64,000 nt of DNA from Azolla caroliniana (lineage: Eukaryota > Plantae > Polypodiophyta), in the NCBI GenBank assembly GCA_043228905.1, contig JBHGNT010000004.1:11160001-11224000 (forward strand). The letters run 5' to 3'. The notes below the pieces were generated by a model that worked only from the letters and a program-made list of their open reading frames with translations, ran no database searches and had not been told where the DNA came from. Position numbers and translations under genes: made by a program. Position 1 is the first letter of the stretch. Each line of letters opens with the position of its first letter. Of the stretch, positions 7,318-48,924 are shown in pieces.

Positions 7318-7758
7318 TCGGTATCCAGATATAACCGGCCGGATCGGTGAGACGGATCAGAGAGCTGGATTCGAGGGGGAACCGGAAGCCTAGTAGTAGC
7401 CTAGACTACTAGGTAATCATTGTCTCATAGTTAGTGTCAGTCGTTTGTATGAGCACTGAAGTACCTGTCAGTACTTTTATCAGTCCTTTATGGACTTTGT
7501 ATAAATAGTGTTGTTATAGCACATTGTATGTACATAGAGTTTTAGAGTTATTTTGAATTGAGTTTATGTTCTGCTCTCTCAGTGCGTCCATGATTGGATG
7601 TACCCATAAATCAACTTAGGGTTTACAAGAGTTGACATACACGCTTGATTTCTCTCCCCCGTGTATACTCTTTGTGTATTAAGCTTCTCCATTAAACCTC
7701 TTATTCTCTGTTGCTATCCGGCTGAGCCGGTTCTGTCTAACGCTTTTGCATGTTAACA
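7318..7758 (+). repeat. 3' part of a copia-type (probably solo) LTR interrupted by E1
   Basis: Shares GAGCA(C/T)TGAAGTAC(C)TGTCAGTACTT and downstream layout with the copia LTR near 39100; ends TTAACA directly against copia gag coding sequence. Confidence 0.6.
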
Positions 7759-8334
7759 TCGACACCTAAGTTCCCAAATCTCGGCTTAGGAAACGACAAT
7801 TGAAGATGAACTAAAAGCAATGTTTCTAATGTGTAGTCTCCCCCCTTCGTGGGAAACTTTCGTCACAACTGTGTGCAATGCGTCGACTGCCGTCGTGAAG
7901 CACTCTGAAGTCACAAGCTCAATTTTGATGGAAGTTGCTTGGAGGAAATCGTTTGCAAATGATTCATCCAGTGACGCCTACGTACTACAAGGTTCGAACG
8001 ACTGATTGAACACTTGAGGATGAAGTTATTCGTGATTGCCGACAAATTAACGACGCTGGAGCAAGTCCTGGGATAATCGAATCTACAATTATTACAAGAA
8101 ACTTGGACATATCAAGGCCGATCGCCGCACACTCAAAGCAAAAAATGACAAAGCTCATCGAGCTGATCAAAAGAGTGGTAGGCTTGAGGAGGTCAACTAC
8201 ATCGGCTCTTCAGCCGAAGTATTGACGGACGACCCGAACATTCTATTGATCGAACACTCAGTGGAATCAAAAGTTCTGCTTACGATTGGGGAATCGAGCA
8301 CATGGCTCATGGATTCGGGTGCATTCTACCACGT
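7759..8334 (+). pseudogene. Ty1/copia gag-protease relic (host element X, left part)
   Basis: Translates LMCSLPPSWETFVT, a decayed knuckle (LGHIKAD) and WLMDSGAFYH; continues as VTPHR at 24763 across the nested insertion. Confidence 0.8.
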
Positions 8335-9075
8335 TGTCGTGTTGTTTTGCTTACGGATCGGAAACTAAGGCGGGACCGTCGGGGCCTTGGACCAAGGAGT
8401 GCAAGAGATCGAAGAGAGAGAGACAGTGTCGGGCCGGCGAATACCCGCTTCCGGCAAGCAACGCTTACCAGCCGAATGAACCACGACTGCGTGTACAGAA
8501 CGAAGAGAGACACACAGCCACTAGACAATGAAGGGAACCACGCAGGAAAACACTGAGAGATGGAAAACAGGAGAATCAATTCCAATAATAAGAGTAATTA
8601 CAACGATTGCAAGATTACAACCGGCAAACCAGCAACAGACCCAACATAGGCGACCACACACCCACACACGCACACAGTGGAGCCTCTACCGGAAGCACTC
8701 GGGCTTTCATCGAAGCAGAGGAAACCGACCCAAAACCCATAGCGAACAACGATAAAGGAGGAGAGAGCTCAGTTCCCAGTCCGACAACGCCTCGTCCTCG
8801 CCAAGACGTGATCCTCTCTTCAGTTGTCTCCCCTTTCTTTTTATAGGACGCTGGGGAGGGACCGTTACATCCCGTCACATCACTTTTATTCTCTGTCCCT
8901 TTGGACAGAGATCCGATTCGATTTACTAACCTATTAATATATTCTTCCTAGGATATACACAGTACGCCGGCCTATTTCTAGTTATGTACAGAGTGTTGGT
9001 TTGAGTGCACACGCGTAAGTGCCGTTGCACGAGCCTAATTCCTTGATTTTACCTAAGGCCGGTTTTCTCCATGCA
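8335..9075 (-). repeat. 3' LTR of gypsy copy C
   Basis: Collinear with 24017-24762; inner end damaged at the deletion junction. Confidence 0.88.
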
Positions 9076-9096
9076 CCAGAGAGGGACAAATGCTGG

Positions 9097-12000
9097 AGAA
9101 AGCCGATTTCTCTCTGGAGAAGGTGAGCCACGCGTTCTCAAGTCTTTGAAGCACCTTCTTGCAATCGCTGATGTGGTCCACTACGAATCTTTGGTATCCG
9201 TCCGGCCGTTCTCTTCCACCGGGCACCCTTTTATCAAGATGTCGTCCAAGAACGACATGGTGATGCCCGGGATGCAATCCCTCAGCACCTTATTCATTGC
9301 ATTCACCATGTGCGCCACCAAGTTGGTCCCTCCATGCGGCAAGGTACACATCCGCACTAAGCCGAGAGGAGTTCGCATTGTCGTAATGTCCCTGCTCTCC
9401 ACAGCTAGTTGGAACTAATTGTACCCTGAGTACAGATCCCCGACCGAATAGATCGACCTTCTGGCGAAGGCCTCCGCGAACTCATCAATGGTCGGTCCAA
9501 TACCTGCATTCTGGATGGTCACCTTGTTGACCGGTTGCAGGTCTTGAATGAAGCGCAATGTGCCATTCTTCTTTGGCATGGTAAACCACCAATTCGAATA
9601 TGGGGTGCTCAACGGCTCGAGGATGCCCATCTCCACCTTTTGCTTCAGCAACCCCATCAACTTCGGGATGTGAGCTCTGGGTACCAGAATCGGTTTGAGA
9701 TTCCACGACACATGCGGTACCGTGAAGATCACCATCGGTTCCACGATCGTCGGGTCCACGCACCCGATCTCCTCCGGTGAGAATGCGAAGGCTTTCCCGT
9801 GCCTTCTGAGCATTCTTTGAAACCGCTCGTCCTCCGCCAACGGTAGAAAGCCACCCACACCGACCTTGAGCTCCCGTAGCGTTATGTCGGTGAACCGGTG
9901 CCCTATGCTGGCTGGATTCCACAAACTTGGGTCCCACGCGACCCCTTTCATTCGTTCCTCGCTGCCCTCCGGCAAGGGTGCCGCGACTGGCCTCACCTTC
10001 CGGTCTACAGTCTTGTACCTCGCATCCACGCGGGTCGTCCGATCCGACCCGACCCTTCCACCGAAGTTGGCAATGACTTCGTACATCTCCACCGAGTTAA
10101 CTGGAATCACCCGGTCTTCACTGAGGCCTTCTTCGATCACCTTTCCCATTTCCTCGAGGGTGTCATTGAAAGAGACCGCCTCCACGACGCCGCTAATTTC
10201 TTCGTCGGGGCCGAGGACTTTGCACTCTCTGAAACGCTCCTTGACCCTCCTCTTTTCCCGGCCACCGACGCCGGCTATCGTACAGCCTCCGTTGTCGGAG
10301 TCCCAAAACTTCCTACCTATAGTACGAAACTTCCTTCCTACTGTACACGTATGGGGTTCTTCTGGAGTGTCTGGACTACCGCGGCCCCACACCTTGATAG
10401 CCTTCTCTAAAAATCCCCATGGCCATCGCCGCCGAGGGTCTCGCGGTTGCGCTCATGGTTCGGTCGCACTGTCAGAAACTGGACGGAGTGTCGTCCGTCT
10501 TGGCTCTTTTCGCGCGCATACGGAAAACCGTTGTCCAGCACCCTGGTCTCCATGTGGGCTGCCGTAATGTACGGTTCGCCGAGTATCACCGGGTGCGAGG
10601 ACGTCTCCTGCACAAAGAAGTGCTGATCAATCTCGACATCTCCAATTTTCACGCGTACATTCGGGCATGTCCCATGCAACTCTTCCAAAGCGCGTGTCGC
10701 CACGCGTATTTTCCAGTTGTGCTTGGTGTTGATCGGCCACTTTCCCTTCTTATAGAAGTCCATAGACATCACGTTGATCTCCGACCTGTGGTTGATCAAC
10801 GCCACTACCGGTTCCTGGACGTCCCCGACCCGAACGGGGGTTTCCGTTGTAGTGCTTGCCCAGTACAACTTTGAATAGTGGCTCTCCGCCAACTCGTCTT
10901 CAAGGGCCACGTCCTCCAGGTGTGTCGTTTGCACCTCCACCGGCTTCTCCGGCTCTGACTCCCTCGAGAGTCGTTTACGCTTCACGAAGTCTGCGTTGGA
11001 ATCGTGGAACTCCTTCATGGAGATCCCGAGCACCTCCCTTAGTGATAACTCCACCTTGCTGTCGAGAATCCGCTCCTCGAGGGCCTTCTGCAGGTCCGTC
11101 ATCCTCTCAATCTCCGTGCTCAGTCGGTAACCGGCCCACTTCGTTCTATCCGATGCGCCGGGGTTACCAGCATCATTCTGCTTCGGCCCGAACCGGGTCT
11201 CATACCGCTGGGAGGGTTCGGCCCCTCCGGCCCCTCCGGCCTTTTCTGCACGCTTGTCTTCAACTAGAACCTCGTAGTTCTGGCACGCCGCTTCCACGAA
11301 TCCGGTTTTCTCCTCGACTGGGTCGTCCCATCCAGTCACCTGTCGGATCCGCTTCTCAGCACGGTCCGCTTCTTCCTTCCTTAGCCGTACGCCGGTGAGG
11401 CCTTCCATCACCAACGGCTAGAATCCAGAGACTTCCGTTTTTCGGCCTTCGTCGCTTCCGACCCGGATTGCCGCCGACGCCGAGTAGTGGACGGCCTCCG
11501 CATGGCGTGCCGCCACTTCTTCCATTAACCTCTTCATTCCGTCACGCCCAAAATTTGTCTCCACGGCTCTCTGGGTGTCACCAGCGTGCACACGCCCGTT
11601 CCACAGGTACATCACGTTACTTCTGTGCACTTTCGCAAACTCCACGCAGTCTCGCCGACTGTGTCTGACTGAGTCGCACCACATACACCGTTGTTCGGCG
11701 GGAGGCCGTCAGTCGCATGGCTGCCCTTCCTTGTCTCTTCGGGCCTGTGCGATCTGAAGGTCACGCACCATCTTCATTAGTTCTTCCAGAGCCGCTCCTC
11801 CAGACAGACCCTTGAGCACACCGATCGAGGTCAAGCTCGTCTCAAGCCAATCCCAGGTTTCCTCCTTTCGTGCTGGAGAAGGTTCGTCACCCTTCCTGGC
11901 TGGGATAGGTCTTGCCGCCGACGAACCCTCGTCGCCCCACTCGCACCGTTTATCGAAACAGTTGCATACTCTCTTCACCACGGCCCGGTCGGTTGTTAGC

Positions 12001-12155
12001 CCATCATTTGTCTCTAGCAGGAGACCCACTTGATCCTGATCTCGCACGTCCACCGCTTTGACGAACAACAGGACACGGCTCGTGTCAAGCAAGATTCTGT
12101 CCAGTGCCGAGAGCCAGGCAAAGCGTTCCTCAAACTCCCGGAGGAGCGCTGACGT
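9097..12155 (-). pseudogene. Disrupted gag-protease and partial RT of gypsy copy C
   Basis: ORFs 11709-12197, 11418-11684, 10407-11414, 9415-10392 and 9181-9402 closely match gag/PR/RT of the element at 14070-20943. Confidence 0.9.
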
Positions 12156-12644
12156 TGTTGCGTTGTTACACGCGTGCGTGGAGAAAGGCGGGACCACAGG
12201 GGTCTTGGACTAGGGAGCGACGGAGTGTAGGAAGTCGCACTTCACCGTTTCTGGGGCACCCCTGAAACGCACCGGAAGCAGCCGAAGGGAGAGAGGGAGT
12301 GAGAGAGCGTGCTTGACACCGACTCACGCGCGCACACACACACACCCACACACACCCACACACACACGCGCACTCGCCCTCTTGTACAAGAAACGCAGGG
12401 AAGGAGGGGAGCACCCGACACCAACAAGACGCCAATATACATAGACAGACGCAAACGTATATGTATATATATATAAGTAGAATACACTCCTGGCTTCGAG
12501 CCGGACCAAGATAGTTTACAACAGTCGTCTGCTGTCAAGCCGCCGTCAGGGAGCTCTCGGGCTCGTCGCACCGAGCGGGGTATTGCACAGGAGATAAGCT
12601 GCAGCCAACCCGGTTTTCGCCTATGGCCAAAATTCTTCACGACA
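12156..12644 (-). repeat. 3' LTR of the gag-only element (about 285-bp internal deletion)
   Basis: Matches 22805-23260 then jumps to about 23546-23578; contains (CA)n and (TA)n tracts. Confidence 0.88.
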
Positions 12645-13639
12645 TCCGCCCCCACCTAACTTCACGTCCACCGGTACGTGCCAATCTGGTTGAAGGGTGA
12701 GAGATTTCGGCCGGTGAGAACCGGTCTCCCGTGATCCGCATCTCGGCTCGCTGCCGGTTTGATCCGGCGGCTTCGAGTCTTCCTTCGCACTCGCCTCCCT
12801 GTAGGCTCATTCGACCCGTCGATGGGTCCTCTGCCGCGACCTCCGTAGCACGCATTCTTCCGTTGGCCCCTGTTCGGCCGTATGAACGCCCCGCTTCCCG
12901 CCGTGTGCCCGATGTCCTCCGCTAGAGGAATGCCCGTGGCAGCCCGCTTGGCCTCCGTTTTCGAATCATGATGTCCCGATGGTGTTTCGCGTCGCCTTCG
13001 TCCTTCCGCCGACACCTTCCTTCTCCATGGTCTTACATCGCCGCGTCGGCTCGAACCGCCATGGTCTCCGGATCGGTGTGGAAGATTCCTTTCCGGCCTT
13101 CTTCCGCGCTCGCCTTTCCGCTCCGGCACCTCCGTGTTGCACTCCTCGTCGGCCCCTTTCCGGCCTGATTGTGCATCGTTGTTCACCCGCATACCGGTGT
13201 CCTTTGCATCCGAGGAACACCCCGTAGTAGCCCGCTTGGCCCTTCCCGTCTCCGTGCTGCTGCAACAGGTCCTGGGTCTTCCGCTTGCCGTCGTCCCCTT
13301 GCCCCCACCAGCTTGTCACCCCGGCTTGCCGTGTCAGTCTTTGTTACTTCGACGGAGTTACCGAGATCTACAAAGCGAGTGTGGAGGATCCTCCTCCGGA
13401 CTCTCTTGCCGTCTTGGTCCCGACCCTGTGCAGTCCACTAGGCACTTGTCCCTTCGTTCTCGGCACCTCCCTTGTGCCGTCTTCCGCTTCCTTCGTTCGG
13501 CCCTACCCGCGCTGAACCATCGTCCCGTAGTCACGCTTCGATCCGGCCCATGATGACCACTCGCGAGACTCTTGTTCTGTCCTAGGTGTGCCTTTCCGGC
13601 CTGACACACCTCCCCGTGTTCACCCTTATCGGCTCCTTC

Positions 13640-14065
13640 CGATACCTCGTGTCGTCGGGTCCCGTTCCCTACCGCCACCGTCCTTCTCCCTTGGTCTCAC
13701 GTTGCCACGTTGGCCGAACTGCCGGAGCCTCCGGATCGGTGTGAGGGTCCCATAGGACCGGACTCCGTTTCTATGCTTGCCGAAATTCGGGTGTCTTTTG
13801 TTTAAGTCCCTCCCGGACTCTCCTCGTGTCTTCCGCGTAGTCGGGTCCCGTTTCCCGCCACCACCTTCCTTCTCCCTCGGTCTTACGTTGCCACGTTGGC
13901 CGAACAACCGGGGTCTCTGGTTAAGTGTGGGGATCCCATAGGACCGGACTTCCTTACGCCCATTGTCTTCGTCACCTTGCCGCCATTGTCAGTATCTTGG
14001 TCTTACGTCGACCGCGTTGCCGACTGCCGAAGTCTCTAGAACTGGTGTGAAGGATCCTCCATCGA
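13640..14065. repeat. Degenerate tandem repeats inside the gag-only element (continued at 20948-21070)
   Basis: Units at ~13650-13765 and ~13837-13955 (period about 187 bp), and a pair at ~13965-14065 / ~20960-21065 split by the nested insertion. Confidence 0.75.
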
Positions 14066-14069
14066 CCGC

Positions 14070-14724
14070 TGTCGTGAAGAAAACCGTCCACAAGCGGAAT
14101 CGGTGCACCAGAGCGTAGGAACCGGCTCTTCATGCAACGTGCGCCTTATGTTGTACATAGGAGATCCTAGGCGGGCAGATTCGGTAGGTAGGAAGTAAAG
14201 GGGAAACGGCTCCTTCCTAGCCTATAAAAGGAGGGAGACGAGGAGGAGAAAAGGGGATCGCGGAGAGTCGAGGACGAAGTGCTGTCGGTTTGCGTGCGAA
14301 GGCTTCTCTCTCTCTCTCTCTCTTTCTGGTTGCAAATGCCATAGCTTCCTTCTGTGCAGGTTTCGGGAGGCCCGCGCTGCTCTGAGGAATGCCCGAGTGC
14401 TTCCGGCAGCACCTCCAACCTACTCATCCTCCTCTGTGCGTTTACGAGCAGGTATCAGCATCTGTTCGCCGGCCTGTTCGGTTGTAACCGACTTCGTGTT
14501 TTGTTGTCTTTGTGTTCTTGTTGTTTCTCCTGTCAATACATACATACTTTCGTGTCTTTCTGTGTCGCTGTCCCACTCGCGTCTTTGCGTCGAAGGGCCG
14601 TGTCCCTGTGAATCTACGCTCGCACGTAGTGGGTCTCTCTCTCTCTCTCTCTCTCTCTTACTCTTCGGTACAGGACCCCCGAGGTCCCGCCTCACTCCAC
14701 GCATCCGCGAGGAATACCTCGACA
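14070..14724 (+). repeat. 5' LTR of gypsy copy D
   Basis: TGTCG...CGACA, TATAAAA near 14223, (CT)n tracts; direct repeat of 20296-20943. Confidence 0.95.
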
Positions 14725-14768
14725 TATTTGGTGAACCCGACGTGAAAGAGGCGGCAAAAGAGCAGAAG

Positions 14769-16759
14769 ATGAGGGGGTCGGATCTTGTAGAGGCCATGGC
14801 TTCAGCCGTGGATCGGATATTGAGCACACGCGAGGACACCGGTGCCCTCGAGTGGCGATGCCGAGCATCCATGCGGAGGTGCTCGAGGTATGGGCGGAGA
14901 GCCGTACCTGGGAGGAGTTCGAAGGCCGACTCCTAGAGAAATATGGGTTGGACGACGCGCTTCGGCTTTCGAAACGGGACTTCATGGAATGGGTGGAGTC
15001 CCCCGGCAAAGGAAGAAACGCGTCGGCACTCCTCTGGGAGTTCGAAGAACGCTTTGCGCGCCTTTCGGCGCTTGACCGAACCATTCTGGATACGAGCCGG
15101 GTCCTACTGTTCGTCAAGTCGGTGGACGAGCGGGACCGGGATCAAGTCGGCTCCTTGCTGGAAACTGAAGACGGGCTGACAACCGACTGGGCTGCGGTTA
15201 AGAGAGTCTGTGGCCGTTTCGACAAATGGCGAGAATGGGCTGACAACGGGGCGGCCGGTGTGGGCTCTGTTACAGCAAGGAGGCTTGAACCGGCACCGCA
15301 AGTGCGAAGGGAAGAAACCCGGGAATGGCCCGAAACCGGTCCGGCTTCGACCAGCATGGTCAATGGCTCGTCCGGAGGAGCAGCGCTAGAGGAGTTGACG
15401 CGGGCGATAAAGGATCTCCAGATCGCCCAGACTCGAAGGGAAGGCGGCGAACCGGCTCGTGACCGACGGCCGGCAGCGGGGAACAGGTGCATGTGGTGCG
15501 ACGAGGTCGGCCACATTCGGAAGGATTGCGGCGATTTCGCAGAGGCGTTGAGAAACCGGGTGGTGTACCTGTGGGAAGGCCGGGTGCACGCTGGCGACAC
15601 TAGGAGGGCCCTGAGCCGAAACGACGGGCGAGGAGGTATGAAGAGACTGATGGAAGAGGCAGCGGCCCGACACGTGGAGGCCATCCACTACTCGGCGTCA
15701 GCCGGTATTCAGGTCGGGGGCAGCGAGGCCCGAAAAGAGAGTAAAGACGGTTTCTGGTCGGCAATGCTGGAAGGCCTCGCCGGCGCGCGGCTGAGGAAAG
15801 ATGAAACGGACCGCGCTGAGAGACGGGTCCGGGAAATAACCGGGTGGAGCGATCCAGTCGAGGAGAAGACGGGCTTCGTAGAAGCCGCTTGCCGGAACTA
15901 CGAGGCTCTGGTAGAAGAAAAACGAGTGGGGAAAGCCGGAGCGGCCGGGCCCTCACAACGGTACGAGACCCGATTCGGGCAACGACGGAACGATGCCGGT
16001 GGGCCCGGCCCGCAAGATAACCCCAGGAAGGGCGGGTACCGACTGGGGACAGAAATAGAAAGGACTACGGACCTACGAAAGGTCCTAGAAGAACGGATCC
16101 TCGACAGCAAAGTGGAGCTGTCATTACGGGAGGTGCTAGGGATCGCCAAGAAGGAGTTCCACGACTCCATTGTAAACTTGGTGAAACGGAAGAGACTGTT
16201 GACGGAGACGAAACCGGAAAGACCGGTGGAGGTGCGGACGACGCACATCGACGACTCGGCGCTGGAAGATGAGTGGGCGGAGAGCCACTATTCGAGGCCA
16301 CACTGGGCCCGAGCGACCACGGAGACCCCGGTAAAAATCGGAGGTGTTCAGGAACCGGTGGTGGCGTTGGTGGACCACGGTTCGGAAATAAACCTAATGT
16401 CCATGGACTTCTATAAGAAGGGAAAGTGGCCGATCAACACCAGGCACGGGTGGAAGATACGGGCGGCGACGCGCGCCACCGAGGAACTGCACGGGGCCTG
16501 CCCGAATGTGCGAGTAAAGATCGGCGACGTCGAGATTGACCAGCACTTCTTCGTACAGGAGACGTCCTCGCATCCGGTCATATTAGGGGAACCATACATC
16601 ATGGCAGCTCGAATGGAGACCAAGGTGCTAGACAACGGTTCGGCCTACGCAAGGGTCAAAAGCCAGGACGGGCGCCATTCGGTCCAATTTCTGACCGTGA
16701 GACCGAATCACGAGAGGAACCGCGAATCCCTCGGTGGCGAGACCCGGGAGGATTTTTAG
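14769..16759 (+). CDS. Gag-protease polyprotein of gypsy copy D (frameshifting deletion near the N-terminus; open from 14852)
   Basis: 635-aa ORF with CMWCDEVGHIRKDC knuckle and ALVDHGSEIN...VILGEP protease. About 45 codons present in copy C are missing at ~14850. Confidence 0.9.
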
Positions 16760-16816
16760 AGAGGGCTGCCAAGGCGTGGGGCCGAGACAGTCCGGACACT
16801 CGGGAAAGACCCCACG
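16750..16816 (+). promoter_or_regulatory. Putative -1 programmed ribosomal frameshift signal (slippery heptamer plus pseudoknot)
   Basis: G GAT TTT TAG, 6-nt spacer, stem 1 16763-16768/16788-16793, stem 2 16775-16781/16810-16816. The -1 frame is open into pol. Confidence 0.8.
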
Positions 16817-19800
16817 ACTGTACGATAGGTAGAAAATTTTGCTTCTCCAACAATGGAGAGTGTATGATAGTCGGCATCGTCGGCCGAGAAAAGACAAGGG
16901 CGGAAGTGCGACTTCGAGCGTGCGGAGTTCTCGGCCCGGACGAGGAAATCAGCGGAGCCGTGGAGACGGTCTCCTTCGACGACACCTTGGGAATGCTGAG
17001 GAAGGTAGCCGGAGAAGACCTTAACGAAGACCGGACGATACCGGTATGTTCCGAAGAGATGTACGAAGTCATCGCGAACTGCAGTCAGGGGCTCGGGTCG
17101 GATCGCATGGCCCGAGTTAGCATGAAGTACAAGACTGTGGACCGGAAGGTAAGGCCAGTCGCGGCACCCTTGCCAGAGGGCAGCGAGTCCCGAATCAGAG
17201 GGGTGGCGTCGGACCCCAGTTTACGAGACCCGGCCTGCATAGGACACACCTTCACCGACGGGACGCTCCGGGAGCTCAGGATCGGTGGGGGCGGGTTCCT
17301 ACTGCCTGCGGAGGAAGACCGGTTTCGGAAAATGCTCGGAAGGCACGGGAAAGCCTTCGCATTCTCGTCGGAAGAAATCGGGTGCGTAGACCCGACGATC
17401 GTGGAGCCGATGGTGATATTCACGGTACCACATGTACCGTGGAATCTCAAGCCGATTCCAGTACCGAGAGCTCACATCCCGAAGTTGATGGAGCTATTGA
17501 GGCAGAAAGTCGATATGGGTATTCTCGAACCGTCGAGCGCGCCATACTCGAACCGATGGTTTACCGTACCAAAGAAGAACGGAACATTGCGCTTCATTCA
17601 GGACCTGTAGCCGGTCAACAGAGTGACCATCCGGAACGCAGGAATCGGACCGACCATAGACGAATTCGCGGAGGCCTTCGCCGGAAGGTCAATTTACTCG
17701 GTCGGTGATCTGTACTCGGGGTACGACCAGTTCCAGCTAGCCGTGGAGAGCAGAGACATTACGACAATGCGAACTCCCCTCGGCCTAGTGCGAATGTGTA
17801 CCCTGCCACAAGGAGGGACCAACTCGGTGGCCCACATGGTGAATGCAATGAACAAAGTACTGAGGGATTGCATCCCGGACATGACCATGCCGTTTCTAGA
17901 CGACATCCCCATAAAGGGGTGCCCGGTGGAAGAGAAGGACGAGACACTCGGGCCGGACGGATGCCGGCGATTCGTAGCAACACACATCGACGACTGCGAG
18001 AAGGTGCTACAAAGGCTAGAGGATGCGAGGCTCACCTTCTCCGGGGAGAAATCGGCCTTCGGGCAATCAGAAATCCTGGTGGTCGGGCATCTATGTGGAC
18101 CATATGGCCGGAAGCCGTCTCCGACAAAGGTAGAAGCCATCTCCGCGATGAAGACCGACTATAGCTCGGTTACGGAAGTTCGGAGGTTCCTGGGGGCATG
18201 CGCGTTCTACCACATATGGATCCCGCATTACGCCCATGTTGCAGAGCCACTATACGGGTTGTTGAAGAAGGGGCAAAGATTCGAGTGGCGAGACGAGCAC
18301 ACGGGGTCGGTCCGGAAGCTGAAGGAGGCTCTTACGGCAGCACCGGCGCTCCGGAAGGCTGTCTACGAGAAGGGTACCCCGGTATACATAACGGTGGATA
18401 CGAGCCCGACCGGGATCGGATGGGTCGTCAACCAAGAAGACGAGGACGGCACCCGGTTCCCGATCCGATTCGGCGCTAAGGTCCTCAGTGAGCGACAGCG
18501 AGGGTACGCCCAGGTTAAACGCGAACTCTGGGGTATCGTTTCAGCGGTAAAGGTGGACAAAGACTACCTGATCGGGACAGAAGTGATTATCGAGACGGAT
18601 TGCTTGCCGATTCTCGGCATGGTTTCCGGATCCGCGACACCGGACCTGGCGATGCTCAAGTGGATAGCGTACATCAAGTCCCTAGACCCGGAGATACGAC
18701 ACATTTCCAGAAAGGACAACGCCATGGCCGACATGCTTTCGAGGGCGAGGTTTGATGACGAGGGCGGCATGGTTTCGGAGGACGAAGAAGTCGGCGTGGA
18801 CTTCTTCGAGGCGGCGTACGTGACGACCGATGGGACGAGCACTCCGGCACTTAACGACTTCGACGAGAGCAAGTACGACGGCGAGTGGCTCCAGATCGGT
18901 GGATTCTTGAGGACATTGACGCCGGATGCGTCATGGACGAAGGACGAGGCCAACCGGATCCGGAAGAAAGCTTACCGATTCTTTCTCCGGGACGGATACT
19001 TATGGAAGCACCTGAAGAAGAGGGACAGCACTCCGCTCCGGGTGGTGGCGATGAAGGAAGAACAGGAGGAGCTGCTGACGGCCTACCACGACAACCCTTG
19101 GGCCGGACACCGTGGAACCTGGGCCACGTTCGAGAAGATAAAGGGGAAGTACTGGTGGCCGGGACTGTACCGAGACGTGCATCGATTCGTGACAACTTGC
19201 AGGAGCTGTCAGATGCACTCCGTGGTCCGACACCGGGACGAGCTTCACCCTACGTACCCTCCGACCATCCACTTCAAATGGATGGTAGACCTGGTGACGA
19301 TGCCGATGGGAGTAGGACAGATGCGGTATATGGTCCTGGCTCGGCAAGATCTAACGAACCAGGTAGAAGGCCGGGCCCTTCAGAACAAAACGACCGCGGC
19401 CGTATGTCGGTTCCTGATTGAGGACGTGATATGCCGGTACGGGTGCGTCGGGAAGATTGTGGCTGATCGCGGGGAGTTGGACGCCGAAGAGGCCGAGGAG
19501 CTGTTCGACCGGCTAGGAGTCAAGCTCTCGCTTACCACTGCGTACAATCCGGAGGCGAATGGAAAGGTGGAGCGCGGACACGGACCAATCGTCAAGGCGT
19601 TAGTTCGGGCATGCGGAGGTCAAGTCGGGAACTGGCCGCGGCTGCTGCCTTACGCGTTGTGGGCAGACCGAACTACGCATAGTTCAGTAACCGGATTCAT
19701 GCCGGCAGAACTCATGTTTGGGCAGAAGCCGGTCATGCCAATGGAACGTACGATCTCCTCGTGGGCAACCGTGGACTGGAGAAATGAGATGAGCAGGGAG

Positions 19801-20223: not shown

Positions 20224-20295
20224 GGTTGGACCGGTTTTCTACGTCCCAACACAATTTGGCGCATGCCGGTGGATGCGCGGTTAGGTGGGGGCGGA

Positions 20296-37560: not shown

Positions 37561-37569
37561 TTGGAAAAT

Positions 37570-38770: not shown

Positions 38771-40681
38771 TCCACCGGAATAGTAACCGACGGCCAAAAG
38801 CGTAGGAATAAGAAACTATATAAAGCATAACGTATGTAACGGTTCACGTGGGGAAGCGTGAACGGCTAATTAGACCCTGCATATATAAAGGGCAGAAAAC
38901 CTCTTAAGGAGGTGCGTGTAAATTTTGGGAAATGTAAAATGTTGAGAGACAAGCTCAACATCGGTTGGATCGGCTGAAGAAGCCGAGGACCAGATCGGTT
39001 AGGACCGATCGGTTAGGCCGAGTGCGTAAACCGGGAGGTCGTTAGGAAAGATATTCCGTGAGGAATATATTTGGGAGTTAGTGTAGGGGCTCTTGATGAG
39101 CATTGAAGTACTGTCAGTACTTCGGTCAATCCTTTTAGGACTTGTCTAAAAGTTCTCACTGAGCACGTCTTATGTACAGAGATTGAGTGTTATTGTTGAA
39201 TATAGTTTTTTGTGTTTCTCTCTGTCTCTCCTGCGTATACCGTATAAGCCTAAGCTCTCCATTGAACCTGAGTTTCCTTCCTCTGTTCTATCTTCATACC
39301 TGCTTCCGCACGCTACTTTCTACATGGTATCAGAGCGCGAGGGTTGAGAACCTCTGTGCAGCCGACACAGCTTGACGAAGAAGAACAAGAAGAACGATGG
39401 ATAGAGGCATGGCGAGCTCGCTTCCAACAGAGAAGCTCGACAGAACCAACTATGCGTCTTGGTCCTACAAGATGCACCAGTACCTGCTCGGGCACGGCTA
39501 CTGGAGTTATGTCGAAGGAGCTAATGACGCGGCACCCGAATCGACACACAAAGACTTCCCGTCGTGGGAGCAATCAGCAAGCAGGGTACTATACTGCTTC
39601 GCGTCGTGTGTGGGCGAACAACTATTGAGCTATGTTCAGGATGCAAAGACGCCGAAGGGTGCGTGGGAAAATCTGAAGAAGATTTTCGCCGCGAGCACCA
39701 CAGCCAGGAAGCTTCAGCTCCAACAGGAGTTGAGCAACCTACGACAACGCGACTTGTCGGTGGCGGACTATACCTCGAAGATCAAGGATATCTGCGACTC
39801 CCTCGCCTTCATAGAGGTGAAAATCGAGGAGAGCGAGATGGTCCAGATCTGTACCTTTAAAAACCGATACAACCGGGAGTAGTCGTAACAGGAGACGACA
39901 CTCCACATCTAATCGCGAATGTCGGAGAAGTTCCCCTTAGCCATGTCGGGCAGAAAGGGAAACTCAAGAACGTGTTGCACGTTCCGACAATCACGAAGAA
40001 CTTGGTCTCGGTCGGACAGATCGTCGACCAAGGGATGGAGGTTCGGTTTACACACCTCGGGTGCTTCATTGAGGAAGAAGGCCGAGTGATTGCGCAAGGG
40101 CGCCGAGACGGGAGGATGTTCATCCTCGATTCCACTGACGGTGGCACCGCAATGTTCGCGAAGGGACAAAAAGCCGAGTCGGACATCGACTTGTGGCACA
40201 AGCGGATAGGCCACGTCAACTACCAGCAGCTTCAAGATCTGCAATCGAAACAGGTAGTGTTCGGATTGCCCAAGTTTAGTGGCTGAAAGGCACAAATTTG
40301 TGAAGCCTGCCAGCTCGGGAAGCAACACCGACTTCCTTTCCCCAACGAGCGAAACCGGAGCCAGAACAAGCTCGACCTTATACACTCGGATGTGTGGGGA
40401 CCGGCACAAAACGTTAGTCTTGGCGGGAGCCAATATTTCGTCTCCTTCATCGACGACCACACGCGGCACACATGGATCTACCTCATTGAGAGGAAGAGCG
40501 AAGTCTTCGACTGTTTCCAGGACCTCAAGGAGTTCGTGGAAACCGAAACGGAACGAAAGATCAAGTGCCTGCGGTCGGATGGCGGGAAAGAGTACTTTTC
40601 CGGTCAATTCAACGGTTATCTACAACAAATGGGAATTCGGCGCGAATTCAGTTGTAGATACACGCCGGAGCAGAACGGCGT
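38771..40681 (+). mobile_element. Ty1/copia fragment: LTR to 39324, iMet PBS, partial gag and integrase
   Basis: TGGTATCAGAGC at 39325-39336; EKLDRTNYASW (gag), VLHVP..KNLVSV, LWHKRIGH, CEACQLGKQ, FIDDHTR, LRSDGGKEY, PEQNGV; cut by the LTR at 40682. Left boundary approximate. Confidence 0.85.
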
Positions 40682-41759
40682 TGTCGTGAAGTACGAAAGC
40701 TTCACATTAAAAGTCTACAATAAGATAAATACGTAACTAAAATAACATTTGATAATGTTTTATAACAACACATATGATAATATTATATATATGTAAAGAA
40801 AAATAATATATATATATATAGATAAATATATTATATTACATGAACAAGAGAGGACTTGAACCAATAACCCCACCCTATGACTCTCAAATCTTACCATTTA
40901 CTCTATACTAGTAATATACATAAAATAAAGCATACTTTATATTACATAAAGGATTTGCTTCATGATATAAAAATAAAGTTGTATGTTGTATTCAATAGCA
41001 TTTTGAGACTCAAACCCACAACCTCATACACCAAAGTTGACACACCTACCATTAGGCTAGGCCCTTTCTCTTTAAGATTATGTTTTCATGTTTATTGTTA
41101 TTGCATATATTGTTTCATACATAAAAACTCAAATGAGCGAGATGTTTATCATGCATCACATGTAATGCATGAACGCCAAATGGCGATCATGCATCACATG
41201 CATTTCATGCATTACATGCATGACTTGTACCCTCTAATGCATCATATGCATGGGGGCACCTATTTAAATGGTGAAAGAGAAGATCAAAGGGAGATATGTA
41301 TGAGATATCAATCAAATTATATATTTCATAAGAGATACCATAAAAATAGAGAAAGAAGGGAAGAAGTTTAACATAAACGTGGAGCTCTAGCTTGGCGGTT
41401 GTGGTGGTCAACTCTCAACAAGAGGGAGGCGGTTCGAGCCTTATCTTCATCAAAATATTGAAGTGAAGATTGTAATGGTTTACGATCAAGAAAGAGAAGA
41501 GCGATTACCTTGCAAGACAAAGTTCGGAGGTTCAATGATGTGCACAATCATTTTGTAACTCTTTTATCAAATAATTATAAATCTCTTTTATTGCTTCAAA
41601 TATCATTCTATATCCTATCTTGTCATATCTTGTTGATCACTATTTATCTATCTCTACTCTTTCGTCTCTTCCGTCCATAATCCCAGTGATTCCTTCCTCA
41701 CTTTCACGATATCTTTTGTCTACGCAACGCTACGCTTCTAGGTGAGCCACGCCACGACA
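40682..41759 (+). repeat. 5' LTR of gypsy copy B
   Basis: TGTCGTG...CACGACA. Termini and U5 resemble the copy A LTR; central U3 is divergent. Confidence 0.9.
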
Positions 41760-41826
41760 CAATTTGGTGAACCCGACGTGAAACGGGGAAGTAGAAGAGA
41801 CATCTAAAGTAAAGATCAACATCAAC

Positions 41827-44001
41827 ATGGCAAGTACGAGTACAATGGATCCGGTAATGTTGTTTATTGAAAAGTTGAATCAAGATCGATTATTTCATGC
41901 CTTACGAGAAGTCCGAGAGAAGATTGGTATGTTTGATGGCACAAATATTTCGAAGTATGTGAATATATATTATGATGAAATGGAAATGTCTGGTATAAAT
42001 GATGTCAATATGATAGCAAACTTTTATAAATTAGTGGACATGGAATTAAGAGATAGAATTCATGAAATACAAGCATTGCATAGTTTGGATTGGAATGCAT
42101 TCAAAGAAGAACTTGTGTCTGAATATGCTCGTGAGGATTTCTCTCGAGTTACTATGCGTTCATTTCATGAATGGATCTTAAAAGAAGATAAAGGGTTATC
42201 TGTGGCTGACACAAAAAAAGAGTTTGATAGGATGTATGGACACTTAAAGCCAGAAGAAAGAAATTCTTTGTCTTGGCAAAAGGTTGCTTTATTTTTGCAG
42301 GCAGTTGACAAGAGATATAGAAAAGAATTGGAATTCATGCTTGAAGTACCAAATACTGAGGATGGTATAACTGCAAATTGGAATGAGGTAACAAATGCTT
42401 GTATTAAATTTATGAAAAGAATGCAAAGGAATGGTGCAATGCTACAAATACCACATGTGGGAATCACAAATCGGCTTGAGCAAAACATCAAAGTTCAAAG
42501 ACTTGGTCGAGAACCATCACAAGAAATGGTCCATCAACCACGAGAAATGATCGAAACTAAGAGTGAGTCTTTGCTTGATGATTTAGTTCAAAGTATGAAA
42601 GATCTAACAATTAAAGTGGCAAAGCTTGAGAATGGTCAGACTTCGAGGTCAAGGGAACCATTTCGACCTCGATGCATGTGGTGTGATAGTCTCGAACATC
42701 GATTACGTGATTGTGCGGAATATAAAGACATGGAAAATCGAGACTTCGTCTATAGGAAAAATGGTAACATTTATTTAACTGAAACTAGAAGTCCACTTAC
42801 AAAGAACTTTGGTGATGGTGGTGTTAAGGTTAAATTTGAAGAAGCTGAAGCAAAGAAGGCTTCCGCAATGTACTACTCGGCAACGGCAGGAATGCGCCTC
42901 GATGACATGCCATCTCGGTCATCATTCCGGGAGAAGGTTGTAAGTACCGCACAAAAGCAAAAGATGAAGATGGAAGACCTTCGTGTTGCCGGAGATTCTG
43001 TAAGGAAAAACACTGGATGGGATGTTCCAGTAGATGCTATGACGGTCTATGCTCAGATGGCAAAACACCAAGATCATGAGGTGATAGTGGAAGAAAAAAG
43101 GAAAAGATCGGATGATGAGATTGGCTCAACCAAAAAGCATGAAACAAGAGAAAGCAAAAGAAAAGAGATGGACGCAAAAGTTGAAAAAGGTAAATCTGGT
43201 CCTTCATTCAAATTAATGTCTGATATTGAAAAGGATACAGATTTAAAGAAAGTTCTAGAAACAAGAATACTAGACAGTCGAGTAGAATTTACACTAAGAG
43301 AAGTGTTAGGTATTGCAAAAAAGGAATTTCATGATGAAATAATTGATATTGTGCGACGAAAGAAGCAAGTAAATGAGCAGGTTAAAGAGACAAATGCGAA
43401 GGTGGCATATGAAGTGGTGAGCAACGAGTCAAACAATATCGTTGTTGACTCTCAACATGCATCAACCTCAATGATAAATTCAACTAATGTAAGAAGCCAT
43501 TACTCTCGCAAATGTTGGGCAAGAGCCACTACTAAGCATCATGTGAAGATTGGAAATGTTCCAGACCCCGTGATGGCACTTATTGATCATGGTTCTGAAA
43601 TAAATATAATGAGTGCTGATTTTTACAGGAAAGGTAGATGGCCAATTGATACTCAACATGGTTGGCGAGTAAAAGTTGCCACATCAGTCACGGAAGATTT
43701 ATTTGGTGCATGCCCAAATGTAAAGGTTACTATTGGTGATATAGAGGTAGATCAACATTTCTTTGTGCAGGAAGGATCTACCTATCCAATAATCCTAGGG
43801 CAACCATACATTACAGCGGTACGAATGGAGACCAAAGTCCTCGACAATGGTTCTGCCTATGCGAAAATCCGTAGCCAAGATGGACGAAGAACTGTACAAT
43901 TTATGACAGTTCGCCCAAATCATGAGAGGAACAAGCAAGAGCTTCGTGATCATTTAATACCAAAAGACTGTGATGATTTTGATAATCAAGATTTTGACTA
44001 G
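41827..44001 (+). CDS. Gag-protease polyprotein of gypsy copy B (uninterrupted, 724 aa)
   Basis: CMWCDSLEHRLRDC knuckle, ALIDHGSEIN...IILGQP protease; ATG about 45 nt after the PBS. Confidence 0.9.
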   Translation: MASTSTMDPVMLFIEKLNQDRLFHALREVREKIGMFDGTNISKYVNIYYDEMEMSGINDVNMIANFYKLVDMELRDRIHEIQALHSLDWNAFKEELVSEYAREDFSRVTMRSFHEWILKEDKGLSVADTKKEFDRMYGHLKPEERNSLSWQKVALFLQAVDKRYRKELEFMLEVPNTEDGITANWNEVTNACIKFMKRMQRNGAMLQIPHVGITNRLEQNIKVQRLGREPSQEMVHQPREMIETKSESLLDDLVQSMKDLTIKVAKLENGQTSRSREPFRPRCMWCDSLEHRLRDCAEYKDMENRDFVYRKNGNIYLTETRSPLTKNFGDGGVKVKFEEAEAKKASAMYYSATAGMRLDDMPSRSSFREKVVSTAQKQKMKMEDLRVAGDSVRKNTGWDVPVDAMTVYAQMAKHQDHEVIVEEKRKRSDDEIGSTKKHETRESKRKEMDAKVEKGKSGPSFKLMSDIEKDTDLKKVLETRILDSRVEFTLREVLGIAKKEFHDEIIDIVRRKKQVNEQVKETNAKVAYEVVSNESNNIVVDSQHASTSMINSTNVRSHYSRKCWARATTKHHVKIGNVPDPVMALIDHGSEINIMSADFYRKGRWPIDTQHGWRVKVATSVTEDLFGACPNVKVTIGDIEVDQHFFVQEGSTYPIILGQPYITAVRMETKVLDNGSAYAKIRSQDGRRTVQFMTVRPNHERNKQELRDHLIPKDCDDFDNQDFD

Positions 44002-46811
44002 GACTGTTGCGAGTGAGGGTTGCAATAGTCCCATTATTAAAAGACCCTCATATAGGGCATTACAACATATGAATAAGTCATTTCATGTTTCTGAAAGTGG
44101 TGCTATATGTGTGACTAGGATGTATGAATGCAAGAGGAACTTGAAAAAGAATGCTAATCTGTTAGCAGGCATTGAAGGATAATGGAGTACTTGAAATGGA
44201 AGAGCAGATTGAAAGTGTTATGGAAGAAATTTCTTTTGCAAATACTTTAGAAGAGTTAGAAATGTATTTGAAAGAAGATGATGAGAATGTTAGAAAGATA
44301 CATGTAAACTCAATTGATATGTATTATGAGATTGATAGGTATAATTGTAAATATGAAGAAGTAGAAAGTTTATGTAATACAAAATACAAAACAATAGATA
44401 AAAAGGTCAAACCTGCTGCAGTACCATTACCTATTGGTAGTGAAGAGAAGATGGAGGCAGCAGCAACTGAGCCTATGCTTCGACCAATAGAGAAGATTGG
44501 ACATCACTTCACTTCGGAGACAATAAATAACTTGAGAATCGGAAGGGGTGAATTTCTTCTGCAATCAGAGATCGCGACTTTCAAAGAAATGATCTTTAGG
44601 CATGGGAAAGCGTTCGCATTCAAAGCTGAGGAGATTGGTTGTGTAAATCCAAAGGTGGTGACGCCAATGGTAATATTTACTATCCCTCATATTCGTTGGA
44701 ATTTTAAACCTATTGCAGTACCGAGAGCTCAATTACCTCAATTGTGGGAGCTGCTGAAGGATAAAGTCAAGATGAAGAATTTAGAGCCTTCAAATGCACC
44801 ATACTCCAATAGATGGTTCACAGTTCCAAAGAAAGATGGTTCTCTAAGATTCATTCAAGATCTACAACCGGTCAACAAGGTCACAATCCGAAATGCGGGA
44901 ATCGGACCGATCGTTGATGAATTTGCGGAAGCGTTTGCTGGAAGAGCGATTTACTCTGTGGGAAACCTATATTCAGGATACGACCAATTTCAACTAGCAA
45001 TTGATAGTCGCAATATCACAACAATGAAAACACCAATTGGGTTGGTTCGAATGTGCACTCTACCTCAAGGTGCGACAAATTCAGTTGCTCATATGATGAA
45101 TGCAATGAACAAGGTTCTACATGAGTACATCCCAAAGGTAACTATGCCATTTTTAGATGATATTCCTATTAAGGGATGCTTAGAAAGAGAGAAAGATGAG
45201 ACTATGGTTGGAAATGGTTGCAGAAAGTTTGTGATGGATCACATTAATGACTGTGAAAGTATTTTAAATAAGCTTGAGCAAGTACACTATCAGGAACAAA
45301 GTCTTGCTTTGGGCAAAACGAAGTTCTAATAGTTGGTCATATGTGTGGGTGGTATGGGAGGAAGCCTTCACCGATCAAAATTAATGCAATACAAAATATG
45401 AAGGAAGTTTGCGACTCGGTAACAGAGGTGAGAAGATTTTTGGGTGCATGTGTGTTTTATCATATTTGGTTACCACACTTTGCACATGTCTCAGATCCTC
45501 TCTACCAACTTTTAAGAAAAGGAAAGACGTTTATTTGGACTGATGAACATACACAAGTTGTTCAACAGCTGAAAGAAGCATTACTGAAAGCACCAGTTCT
45601 TCGTCAACCAGACTACAAAGGTGAAAGACCAATTATAGTAACAGTTGATACTAGCCCAATCGGGATCGGTTGGGTTATCAACCAAGAAGATGAAGGCCAA
45701 CATCGATATGCTATTAGATTTGGAGCAAAGATATTAAATGAAAGACAAAGAAACTATGCACAAGTTAAACGAGAATTGTGGGGTTTGCTTACTGCATTAA
45801 AAACAGATAGAGATTACTTGATCGGAGCAGATGTAGTGGTTGAAACAGATTGTTTGCCACTCATTGGAATGGTAGCAAGTTGCACAACACCAGATATTGC
45901 AATGCTTCGGTGGATTGCATACATCAGAACCATGAACCCAGAATTGCGGCATATAAAGGGAAAAGACAACCCAGTTGCAGATATGCTGTCAAGGGCAAGG
46001 TTCATAAATGAAAAGGTGATGGAAACTGAAGATAAGAACTGGGCAACTACAAGCCATCAATTTGCTCATCAAGAATCTATTACGCCTCATGATGAGTTTA
46101 ATGTAAGTATAATGTTCAAAGACACAGAGTATGAAGGTCAATGGTTAGAAATAGGAAATTTTCTAAAGACTCAAGAAGCCAACCCATCATGGTCGAAGAA
46201 ACAATTAAATGAATTTCGAAGACGAGCATTCAAGTTTTTTTTACATGAAGGGCATTTATGGAGGCGTCCAAAAAGGCCAACCGAAAATCCTCTTCGAGTC
46301 ATTTGTAAGGATGACATTAAGAGAAAATTAATTAATGAATTCCATGATAGTTTGTGGGCAGGACATAGAGGCATATGGGCGACATTTATGAAGTTGAAAG
46401 AAAAGTATTGGTGGCCACATATGTATAAAGATGTAATGAAATTTGTGGAAACTTGTGAAATATGTCAAAGGTATTCAACTATTTGATATCGAGATGAGCT
46501 AAAACCAACATATTCATCATCAATGCATTAAAAATGGATGGTTGATCTAGTGACAATGCTACTTGGAGAAAGTCAAATGCGATATTTAGTACTAGCAAGA
46601 GAAGACCTTACAAACCAAGTAGAAGGAAGACCACTACGAGAAAAAACAACTAGAGTTGTATGTAAATTTTTGTTAGAAGATGTAATATGTCATTATGGGT
46701 GTGTTGGTAAAATAATTGCAGATAGAGGAGAACTTGACTCTGATGAAGCTAGAGAATTCTTCAGCCGGATTGGGGTCAAATTATCGCTTACAACTACGTA
46801 TAATCCAAAAG
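44001..46811 (+). pseudogene. Disrupted pol of gypsy copy B
   Basis: ORFs 44172-45329 (RT, FLDD), 45341-46486 (RT, RNase H, HHCC) and 46538-46819 (integrase core, truncated). Confidence 0.9.
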
Positions 46812-46825
46812 CCGGATAGCTACGT

Positions 46826-47852
46826 TGTCGTGAAGTATGAAAGCTTCACATTAAAAGTCTACAATAGGATAAATACATAATGAAAATAAAATAAACCTTT
46901 ATAATGTTAATAGCATACTATGATAATATTATACATTATATGTAGAGACTAAAAAATATATATCTATTATATTACATGGGCATGAGAAGACTTGAACTAA
47001 TAAACCCTACCTTATGACACTCAAAGGTTACCATTTAGCCTATACTAATCATTTACAAAATAATATATGATTTGAAGTAGTATTTTATAGTCTAAACCAT
47101 GTAATATAATACATGCACAGAATTACATGGGCAAAAGAGGACTTGAACCAACAACCTCAACCTTATGGCATTCACACCTTACCATTTAGCCTATACTTAT
47201 AATGTATGTAAATATATGTCTTGTTTTCATTTTAACTAGTATTATATGGTTAAACCATCAAACGTGCTACATGTGCACCATATTAGCACACATGCAAGAG
47301 CCTCTCTGCATGTGCGCCACATGGCCCACATGTAGAACCATCTCTTCCCTATAAAAGGAGAAGGAAGTATAGCCAAAGGGAAGCCAAGAAATAAGATGGA
47401 AATGATTATATTGGATCTAGAGAAAGATATATTGTAATAGAGAAAGAGAGAGAGAAAGGCATTCTTAAAAGAGAAAAGAAGAACTAGCTTGGTGGTGGTG
47501 GTCCTTAACTTGCAACGGAAGGGTGACGGTTCGAGTCTTATACTTGTCGAGAGATTGAAGGGAAGACTATGGTCTACCATCAAGAAAGAGAAGAGCAATT
47601 ACCTTGTGAGACAAAGCTCGAAGGTTCAACGATGCTCGCAATCATTTTGTAACTCATTCATCAAATAATTATAAGTTTCTTTCATTCCTTCAAATATAAT
47701 TCTATATCCCATCTTGTCATATCTTGTTGATCTCTATTTACTCTCTCTACTCTTTCGTCTCTTCCGTCTATAATCCCAATTATTCCTTCCTCACTTTCAC
47801 GATATCTTTTGTCTACGCAACGATACGCTTCTAGGCGAGCCACGCCACGACA
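46826..47852 (+). repeat. LTR of the copy A subfamily (3' LTR or duplicated solo LTR)
   Basis: Near-identical to 26288-27273; flanked by ACGT/ATGT; no PPT upstream. Confidence 0.9.
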
Positions 47853-48924
47853 ATGTCGGTTCGGTCCCCGGTCGCGTATCGGATATGGAACAGTACCCGG
47901 ATCAGAGCGGAGTAGCTCACAGGCCTGAGGGGGTCTATCTTTCATCGCCAGGATGCTAGGGAGCAGCAGCAAGCACATAGGCTCACAAACTCGTACATGC
48001 ACGCAACAGATTCAGGACGGGAATACAACCCGAGCTTAGAGCACGACCAACACATGACAAATAGGAGTCACGCAGGAACCCCAACAAAGGGGACTCAGCA
48101 AACTAATGATTAACATAGAATCCAAAGAGTATAACCGAGCGCAACTGGCAACAACGCTTAGCGCTCTCAAGAGAGACGCACACACACACACACACATACA
48201 CCGGGAGACATGATAAAGAATCTCTGGTCGAGAGCATAGGGGCTGCCAACGCAAGAAGAGACTTCCTCTCCTTGTTCGAAATGGTGCAGAGCACAAGACG
48301 GGAAGAGAGAGAGAGGGGTAGAGAACTCGGCGCTCAATCCAACAACACTTCCTCCTCCTAATTCCTGAATCCCTATCTCAATCTTCTCTCCCTCCCTTTA
48401 TAGCTCAAGGAGAGAGAGAGTTGTTACATCAGGTAGTTAAGTCAGCCGCTTGCGACAGGGATTTTCCACGATTCCCTCACGTCAAACTCCTAAATTCCTT
48501 GCTATCCATGCGGGTCTTTAAAGTGCCCATTAAACCCTACTACCTAGTAATTACTAGTCCTATGTTATTACATGTTTCACACATAAATGCTAAACTTTGT
48601 ACATCCGTGTAGACACCCATTCCCGCGCGTCTCGCTCAGTTTCCCTCTGTAGCCAGACTCCTTCACGACAGCGCTAAAGAATATCAATCCGTTTTCTCAT
48701 AGTTGCAATGCTTGAAAGAGAAGTTTCTCGCATTGGAACAAACAATTCCCTTGAGCATTTCTAAAAACACGCCTTCATTGTACAAGTCATTCATTAATTG
48801 TACATGGACAATCCTATAATCATAGAACGTAATATTCGTGTTCGTGCAAGCATTCAAACGTTTGAAAACGAACACATTTGAAAAGGGAAAAATACATATT
48901 CCTTTTTTTTCATTAATTGTCATT

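What the first reader, a model, noticed from the sequence alone, without database searches (positions are those of the whole stretch)
7318..48674. Gypsy lineage that appears to insert only at CpG, with 4-bp NCGN target duplications
Seen: all seven readable insertions of the tRNA-Trp-primed family have a central CG or its deamination product: TCGG (7318-7321); ACGT/ACGT (8331/24763); ACGT/ACAC (12152/23579, host codons restore ACGC); CCGC/CCGC (14066/20944); GCGT/GCGC (26170/48671); ACGC/ACGT/ATGT (26284/46822/47853); GCGT (40678). Rejoining the host reading frames (YHVTPH, RNASA) requires exactly 4 duplicated bases. Established: plant LTR elements usually make 5-bp TSDs with weak sequence preference, as do the two other TSD-bearing LTR insertions here (GGAAT, AGATA). 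Inference: this integrase reads CpG, possibly methylated CpG, which would steer insertions into other CpG-rich TEs without needing a chromodomain.
Basis: partly seen in the sequence, partly recalled or inferred. Interest (0 to 1): 0.85.

Follow-up and report, generated by a model that had tools for sequence, protein, structure and literature searches.

The report
Known CpG-inserting Phygy retrotransposons, fern
Seven nested jumping-gene insertions in what is likely a fern genome all sit on a CG pair, and the five with both ends readable fit four-base duplications; this is the already published signature of the Phygy retrotransposons of moss, their integrase likely reads the CG itself, and whether methylation matters is untested.

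Summary
Five insertions have both flanks and fit a 4-bp duplication (2 exact, 3 with only C>T/G>A changes); two are one-sided. All 7 carry a literal central CG (chance 2.6e-8 after correcting for motif choice). One metagenome copy (CCGT) and junction contigs from public DNA runs show the same.

It is not new. Neumann et al. 2019 (PMC6317226) report that Phygy Ty3/gypsy elements of Physcomitrella prefer NCGN: 186 elements, 4-bp TSD in 100%, tRNA-Trp PBS in 81%, no extra domain. The window's elements share these traits, and group in a tree with P. patens and Riccia gag-pol proteins.

Small additions: the host is likely a fern; at least three families (pol 58-66% identical) share the habit; the bias is for CG, not just any flexible pyrimidine-purine step (P=1.5e-5). 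The likely mechanism is reading of the central CG by the intasome itself. No chromodomain or methyl-binding domain was found. Deamination shows methylation after insertion, not at the time of targeting, so methyl-CpG sensing is untested.

The parts
1..7317 (-). Element A (third family): 5' LTR 6500-7317, PBS, gag-pol, PPT, 3' LTR ending at 252 and cut by the window start
7318..7321 (.). One-sided target 4-mer TCGG of A; the flanking DNA resembles a copia LTR
793..1247 (.). Control: unrelated solo LTR inside A's integrase, 5-bp TSD GGAAT/GGAAT
8331..24766 (-). Element B (8335-24762; LTRs 8335-~9072 and 24017-24762, K2P 0.087; pol deleted from mid-RT to the 3' LTR) in a copia protease region, TSD ACGT/ACGT
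12152..23582 (-). Element C (12156-23578, non-autonomous, K2P 0.028) in B's gag, TSD ACGT/ACAC; paralogue D reads ACGC at this site
14066..20947 (+). Element D (14070-20943, 6874 bp, youngest, K2P 0.0125) in C, TSD CCGC/CCGC; ORFs 14735-16759, 16540-17610, 17611-20223
18928..20160 (+). Integrase of D: H2C2 zinc finger, D560-D619-E654 core (pol numbering), SH3-like C-terminal domain, no chromodomain
26170..48674 (-). Element E: solo LTR (928 bp net, halves 26174-26287 and 47857-48670), TSD GCGT/GCGC
26284..31386 (+). Element F (5' LTR 26288-27273, internal part to RNase H) inserted in E, left TSD ACGC
40678..46812 (+). Element G (LTR 40682-41759, broken off inside the integrase) in a copia integrase, one-sided GCGT
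46813..47856 (+). 13-bp copy of F's left flank, then LTR H (46826-47852, K2P 0.024 to F), then right TSD ATGT
56300..61623 (-). Control: young copia, LTRs with no substitutions, 5-bp TSD AGATA/AGATA

Best explanation
These are non-chromovirus Ty3/gypsy LTR retrotransposons, likely of the Phygy lineage, whose insertions are centred on a CG with a 4-bp duplication, and whose integrase complex likely recognises that CG itself, probably whether or not it is methylated. Shown: TG...CA LTRs, a shared PBS, a PPT, gag-pol order RT-RH-INT, 4-bp CG-centred TSDs, nesting order B>C>D and E>F, and later methylation. Inferred from foamy-virus intasomes: two active sites cut 4 bp apart around a sharply bent, unstacked central pyrimidine-purine step. 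CG is such a step and is palindromic, so it fits the two-fold intasome. Bendability alone would also accept CA, TG and TA, so base-specific contacts are inferred in addition; which residues make them is unknown. Because young TEs are CpG-rich and old DNA is CpG-poor, this bias would by itself favour nesting in young TEs. After insertion the new copy and its TSDs are methylated and the CG decays to TG or CA.
For: 7 of 7 window sites have a literal CG; 5 of 5 two-sided sites fit 4 bp. P(7/7 CG if only YR mattered) = 1.5e-5, and no pair is CA/CA, TG/TG or TA/TA. Outside copy L002 has CCGT before the LTR. Among junction contigs in the rows shown, the match runs back through the CG of G's flank in 13 of 34 (X10), 15 of 28 (X6), 8 of 22 (X8) and 2 of 3 (X1); P = 1.2e-5, 1.0e-8, 8.8e-4, 0.028 at a generous 10% background. 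The loose-end consensus at the LTR edge ends in CCGG (n=14, n=11) and CCGA (n=8). Phygy in P. patens: 186 elements, 4 bp 100%, NCGN, tRNA-Trp 81%. The only named hits of D's gag are P. patens proteins, which group with Riccia and the window elements at support 0.998. The integrase core matches PFV (Z 19.2, rmsd 2.0, 155 residues), and 4-bp-TSD retroviruses favour a central YR step (PMC4422553). ZAM integrase binds CGCGCg directly (PMC2527525 abstract) and Ginger1 transposases give CCGG/CCGT TSDs (PMC2836005).
Against: No biochemical test. The PFV base-reading residues Ala188 and Arg329 contact bases flanking the central step, not the step itself, so strict CG reading has no structural template among the papers I read. 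No whole genome was held, so there is no genome-wide logo. The contig counts omit 19 rows not shown, runs share loci, and the tool's end-scoring is unknown. P. patens rows in the tree cover only 124 and 169 of 1073 columns and carry no Phygy label. D (6874 bp) and A (about 7420 bp) are shorter than the P. patens range of 7656-9968 bp.
Confidence: 0.65

Rival explanations
1. The intasome prefers methylated CpG, so insertions are steered into silenced TE DNA without a chromodomain.
For: All 7 sites lie in repeats, none in the gene-bearing part of the window. Copies are methylated at CG and CHG after insertion. Phygy is reported enriched in liverwort centromeres (PMC12885004 passage).
Against: No chromo, MBD or SRA hit in Pfam at E<=0.1 in 12 proteins; D's pol ends about 20 residues after the part that aligns with relatives. 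CpG density alone is 3-8 times higher in the TE hosts than in the gene region. ZAM recognises a CG-rich site in Drosophila, which lacks CpG methylation (recalled).
Confidence: 0.2
2. A host CpG-binding or chromatin protein tethers the integration complex and sets the cut position.
For: Tethering by host proteins exists in relatives; the PDB entry for Ty3 bound to TFIIIB is among the best matches. The integrases have variable acidic tails.
Against: A tether rarely fixes the two central bases of the TSD (my knowledge). The trait is shared by families 58-66% identical in pol and by moss Phygy.
Confidence: 0.1
3. Only DNA bendability (any YR step) is selected, and CG dominates by local composition or by how sites were picked.
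For: YR preference is general for 4-bp-TSD retroviruses. Some junction-contig consensus lines end in CA or TG centres.
Against: CG is 19% of YR steps in the window and 5% in the gene region; P(7/7) = 1.5e-5. No two-sided TA, CA or TG pair was seen. Phygy is given as NCGN.
Confidence: 0.04

Closest known systems
Phygy clade, non-chromovirus Ty3/gypsy (REXdb; Neumann et al. 2019, PMC6317226; passages and supplementary file 3 read)
   Same: 4-bp NCGN TSD, tRNA-Trp PBS, no chromodomain, aRH or extra ORF, coding region fills the internal part; P. patens proteins are the named relatives of the gag.
   Different: Described there as specific to Physcomitrella; here the host is likely a fern, with at least three families, and the measurable elements are a little shorter (6.9 and about 7.4 kb).
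Ginger1 DNA transposons (Bao et al. 2010, PMC2836005; passages read)
   Same: Gypsy-like integrase, TGTNR ends, 4-bp TSDs centred on CG (CCGG 75%, CCGT/ACGG 24%).
   Different: DNA transposons with TIRs and no RT; their outer TSD bases are fixed, whereas here they vary.
ZAM of Drosophila (Faye et al. 2008, PMC2527525; abstract read)
   Same: LTR element whose integrase itself binds a CG-containing target.
   Different: Longer CGCGCg consensus; insect element with a retrovirus-like structure.
Prototype foamy virus intasome (PMC4422553, PMC6784120; passages read)
   Same: 4-bp stagger, bent target with a central YR step; best structural match of the integrase core.
   Different: PFV has only a weak YR bias, not near-strict CG.
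TatI and Selgy clades (PMC6317226 supplementary file 3)
   Same: 4-bp TSDs; TatI also uses tRNA-Trp.
   Different: TatI carries an extra RNase H (aRH); Selgy uses tRNA-Ala and is about 5 kb; neither is listed with NCGN.

Membership tests
Phygy | 4-bp TSD | tested here: met
   5 of 5 two-sided sites
Phygy | NCGN target | tested here: met
   7 of 7 window sites, L002, junction contigs
Phygy | PBS for tRNA-Trp | tested here: inconclusive
   The same PBS lies 2-5 nt after 6 of 6 5' LTRs, with one extra base in F. Its assignment to tRNA-Trp is recalled; no tRNA gene is in the window.
Phygy | No chromodomain, aRH or extra ORF; polyprotein fills the internal region | tested here: met
   D's ORFs span 14735-20223 of internal 14725-20295; no such Pfam hit
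Phygy | RT-RH-INT phylogeny inside the REXdb Phygy clade | tested here: inconclusive
   REXdb sequences are not among the 5 supplements held as text. Proxy: two unlabelled P. patens gag-pol proteins group with Riccia and the window elements at 0.998, on 124 and 169 columns.
Phygy | Length 7656-9968 bp (range seen in P. patens; descriptive, not diagnostic) | tested here: not met
   D 6874 bp; A about 7420 bp estimated
TatI | Additional RNase H (aRH) | tested here: not met
   Only one RNase H region in D pol and in 9 pol homologues
Selgy | tRNA-Ala PBS, about 5 kb | tested here: not met
   D is 6.9 kb against 4432-6724 bp; the PBS does not match tRNA-Ala (recalled)
Chromoviruses (Tcn1, Galadriel, etc.) | Chromodomain after the integrase | tested here: not met
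   The C-terminal 140 aa of D pol give only a weak SH3_Tf2-1 hit (E 0.002)

The most novel reading that the evidence does not exclude
Phygy-type integrases read 5-methyl-CpG directly with no methyl-binding domain, a targeting mode kept from mosses and liverworts to ferns that sends new copies into already silenced TE DNA. It would be a retroelement integrase that senses DNA methylation at the cut site, which my searches did not find described.
Probability: 0.2. Interest if true: 0.7.

Novelty: new member of a known kind. Interest (0 to 1): 0.2.

Why it matters
The NCGN habit is already in print for Phygy, so the headline is not a discovery. Two things remain useful. It appears to extend to several families in a likely fern genome; my search for Phygy with fern (passages of 2 of the 3 listed papers read) found no such report. 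And how an LTR integrase fixes the two central bases of its target is unexplained in the papers I read. If methylation turned out to matter, it would be a chromodomain-free route into silenced DNA. If not, CpG reading plus CpG decay still gives a simple self-limiting rule: young TEs are preferred targets and old DNA is spared.

Tried and rejected
Whole genome: none held, so no genome-wide logo. Viral contigs: PBS pattern 0 hits, pol query no confirmed relative. Metagenome contigs LTR-start pattern: 2 hits; L002 is a true copy, L001 matches only the pattern and has no similarity to the window, so I dropped it. Genome contigs PBS pattern: 2 hits, both chance, no tblastn match. First read laying gave mainly internal loose ends, plus one junction reading CCGG after the LTR 3' end. 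TSD lengths 3, 5, 6, 7 rejected. A longer target consensus: none evident in 12-bp flanks of 7 sites. Possible eighth site at 25666-25670 (ACGC then TGTCATG): only weak similarity to F/G LTRs (scores 29-33) and no partner end, so not counted. ESM Atlas gave generic gypsy pol clusters only. Rfam and ARAGORN: nothing. The integrase C-terminal part alone found no PDB sequence match below E 0.1, so its mapping to the PFV Arg329 loop is not shown. Paper searches for Ylt1 with CpG (0 papers), Physcomitrella integrase with CpG and methylated-cytosine targeting showed no test of methyl-CpG targeting in the listings. REXdb element tables and protein FASTA were not among the supplements held; they bear directly on membership.

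Full report
Anatomy. Self-comparison and ORF/Pfam scans show a stack of LTR elements over 1-48.7 kb, then a gene region with a DEAD-box helicase and a young copia. The best named hits of a helicase exon are ferns (Adiantum 52%, Ceratopteris 51%; two unnamed hits rank higher), so the host is likely a fern. No whole genome was held. Elements A, B, C, D, F and G have LTRs of 655-1078 bp starting TGTCGT and ending CGACA, and the same PBS 2-5 nt downstream. Its identity as tRNA-Trp is recalled, not tested. A, C and D keep a purine-rich PPT. E is a 928-bp solo LTR. D is the youngest (LTR K2P 0.0125), inside C (0.028), inside B (0.087). Pol identity to D is 58% for A, 59-65% for G and 66% for F, so this is at least three families, not one.

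Observation check. For the five two-sided sites, k=4 gives 0, 2, 0, 1, 2 mismatches (B, C, D, E, F/H), all C>T or G>A, and k=5 gives 5, 5, 3, 4, 4. C also fits k=6 with 2 mismatches; aligning its two flanks separately to the uninterrupted paralogue D gives an overlap of exactly 4 bases, ACGC. A and G are one-sided. The ACGT at 46822 belongs to a 13-bp copy of F's flank fused to G's broken integrase, so it is not independent. All 7 events have a literal CG on at least one side. Host CG frequencies are 0.010-0.099; their product is 5.4e-10, or 2.6e-8 after allowing free choice of motif and offset. The two control insertions have exact 5-bp TSDs.

Outside evidence. A metagenome scan with a 22-nt LTR-start pattern gave 2 loci: L002 is a true copy with CCGT before the LTR, and L001 is unrelated and was dropped. 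Public DNA runs of 10 studies hold the element. I laid 4 runs on G's left junction. In the rows shown (19 rows were not shown), the match extends through the flank's CG in 13 of 34, 15 of 28, 8 of 22 and 2 of 3 junction contigs. Against a generous 10% background P is 1.2e-5, 1.0e-8, 8.8e-4 and 0.028. The denominators include PPT junctions, the runs share loci, and the end-scoring is unknown, so these are not independent counts. Contigs whose match stops at the LTR edge have consensus flanks ending CCGG (n=14 and n=11) and CCGA (n=8); the single X1 contig there is a PPT. Rows one or two bases further out show CA or TG centres in 4 of 4 cases, as expected from deamination. One contig reads CCGG after the LTR 3' end.

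What it is. Neumann et al. [quoted passage not shown] Their supplementary file 3 (read whole) lists Phygy as 186 elements, 4 bp (100%) (NCGN), 7656-9968 bp, tRNA-Trp 81%, no extra domain. Jedlicka et al. 2019 (PMC6911290; section 8) also find 4-bp TSDs most common in Phygy and GC-rich centres in 4-bp TSDs. The window's elements match on TSD, target and domain content but are somewhat shorter. Among 32 gag hits only two are named to a species, both P. patens; named pol hits in the top 120 of 218 are Riccia and Adiantum. In a FastTree of 54 homologues plus 13 added rows, rooted on the window's other gypsy element, the P. patens rows sit with Riccia inside a clade with all window elements (support 0.998), on only 124 and 169 columns. 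REXdb references were not available. I therefore call them Phygy or a close sister group. TatI is excluded by the lack of aRH, chromoviruses by the lack of a chromodomain. Phygy is also named in a liverwort (PMC12885004 passages). A search for Phygy with fern listed 3 papers; the passages of the two I opened only list the lineage name.

How it likely works. The predicted integrase (pLDDT 81.5, pTM 0.55) has a core matching PFV integrase (Z 19.2, rmsd 2.0, 155 residues) and a weak SH3-like tail. In PFV the target is bent and unstacked at a central YR step between cuts 4 bp apart (PMC4422553 and PMC6784120 passages). CG is a palindromic YR step, which explains the geometry. It does not explain the strictness: CG is 19% of YR steps in the window, and 7 of 7 would occur with P=1.5e-5. 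Base-specific reading is therefore inferred. Precedents are ZAM integrase binding CGCGCg (PMC2527525 abstract) and Ginger1 with CCGG/CCGT TSDs (PMC2836005 passages). Lineage-conserved candidates are the Glu in D-R-G-E-L (E93, D13 of 106 homologues; it aligns to the PFV Ala188 position by my residue count) and a C-terminal Q-H pair (88 of 97 and 86 of 96). These are weak leads, because the PFV contacts flank the central step rather than touch it.

Methylation. LTR-pair transitions run at 13.8% in CG, 8.1% in CHG and 2.5% in CHH, and the TSD mismatches fall at CG or at the CHG made by joining a final C to the LTR's TG. This shows methylation after insertion. It says nothing about the target's state at integration. 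CpG density is 45-99 per kb in the copia, B and C hosts against 13 per kb in the gene region, so plain CpG reading already favours young TEs. Searches listed no test of methyl-CpG targeting (I opened one listed paper, PMC6839031, passages; it does not bear on it). PMC7466625 (passages) gave no target-site data.

Verdict. A real, well-read feature that is the published hallmark of Phygy. The new parts are modest: a likely fern host, several families, and the open question of how the CG is read. Interest 0.2.

Noticed in passing
window 46813-46825 vs 26275-26287: G's integrase breaks off and is fused to a 13-bp copy of F's left flank followed by LTR H. It looks like a templated-repair or deletion junction; contigs of other copies continue with normal integrase at 46813.
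   Followed up: partly
window 25666-26169: Copia homology stops near ACGC|TGTCATG; the following AT-rich, LTR-like stretch has weak similarity to F/G LTRs. Possibly an eighth CG-centred insertion, no partner end found.
   Followed up: partly
window 17890-17919 (D pol 94-103): The RT active-site motif is F-[LVI]-DD rather than YxDD in 112 of 115 homologues.
   Followed up: partly
window 37566-38000: An isolated 435-bp RT fragment of the same lineage (72% to D) lies between the minus-strand gypsy element and a copia LTR.
   Followed up: no
window 56305-61618: Very young copia with one 1394-aa ORF and LTRs without substitutions, lying between the helicase exons at 50-55 kb and a helicase-like exon near 63.4-63.7 kb, so probably in an intron.
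   Followed up: partly
window 13600-14065 and 20948-21065: Non-autonomous element C carries degenerate ~110-190-bp repeats in place of pol; D inserted among them.
   Followed up: no
window 49150-49560 and 56050-56260: Short tandem repeat arrays (about 120-bp units; about 35-bp units) in the gene-side region.
   Followed up: no
L002 (junction at 79-83, - strand): The outside G-type copy is inserted in another gypsy element, 67% like window 32404-32962.
   Followed up: partly
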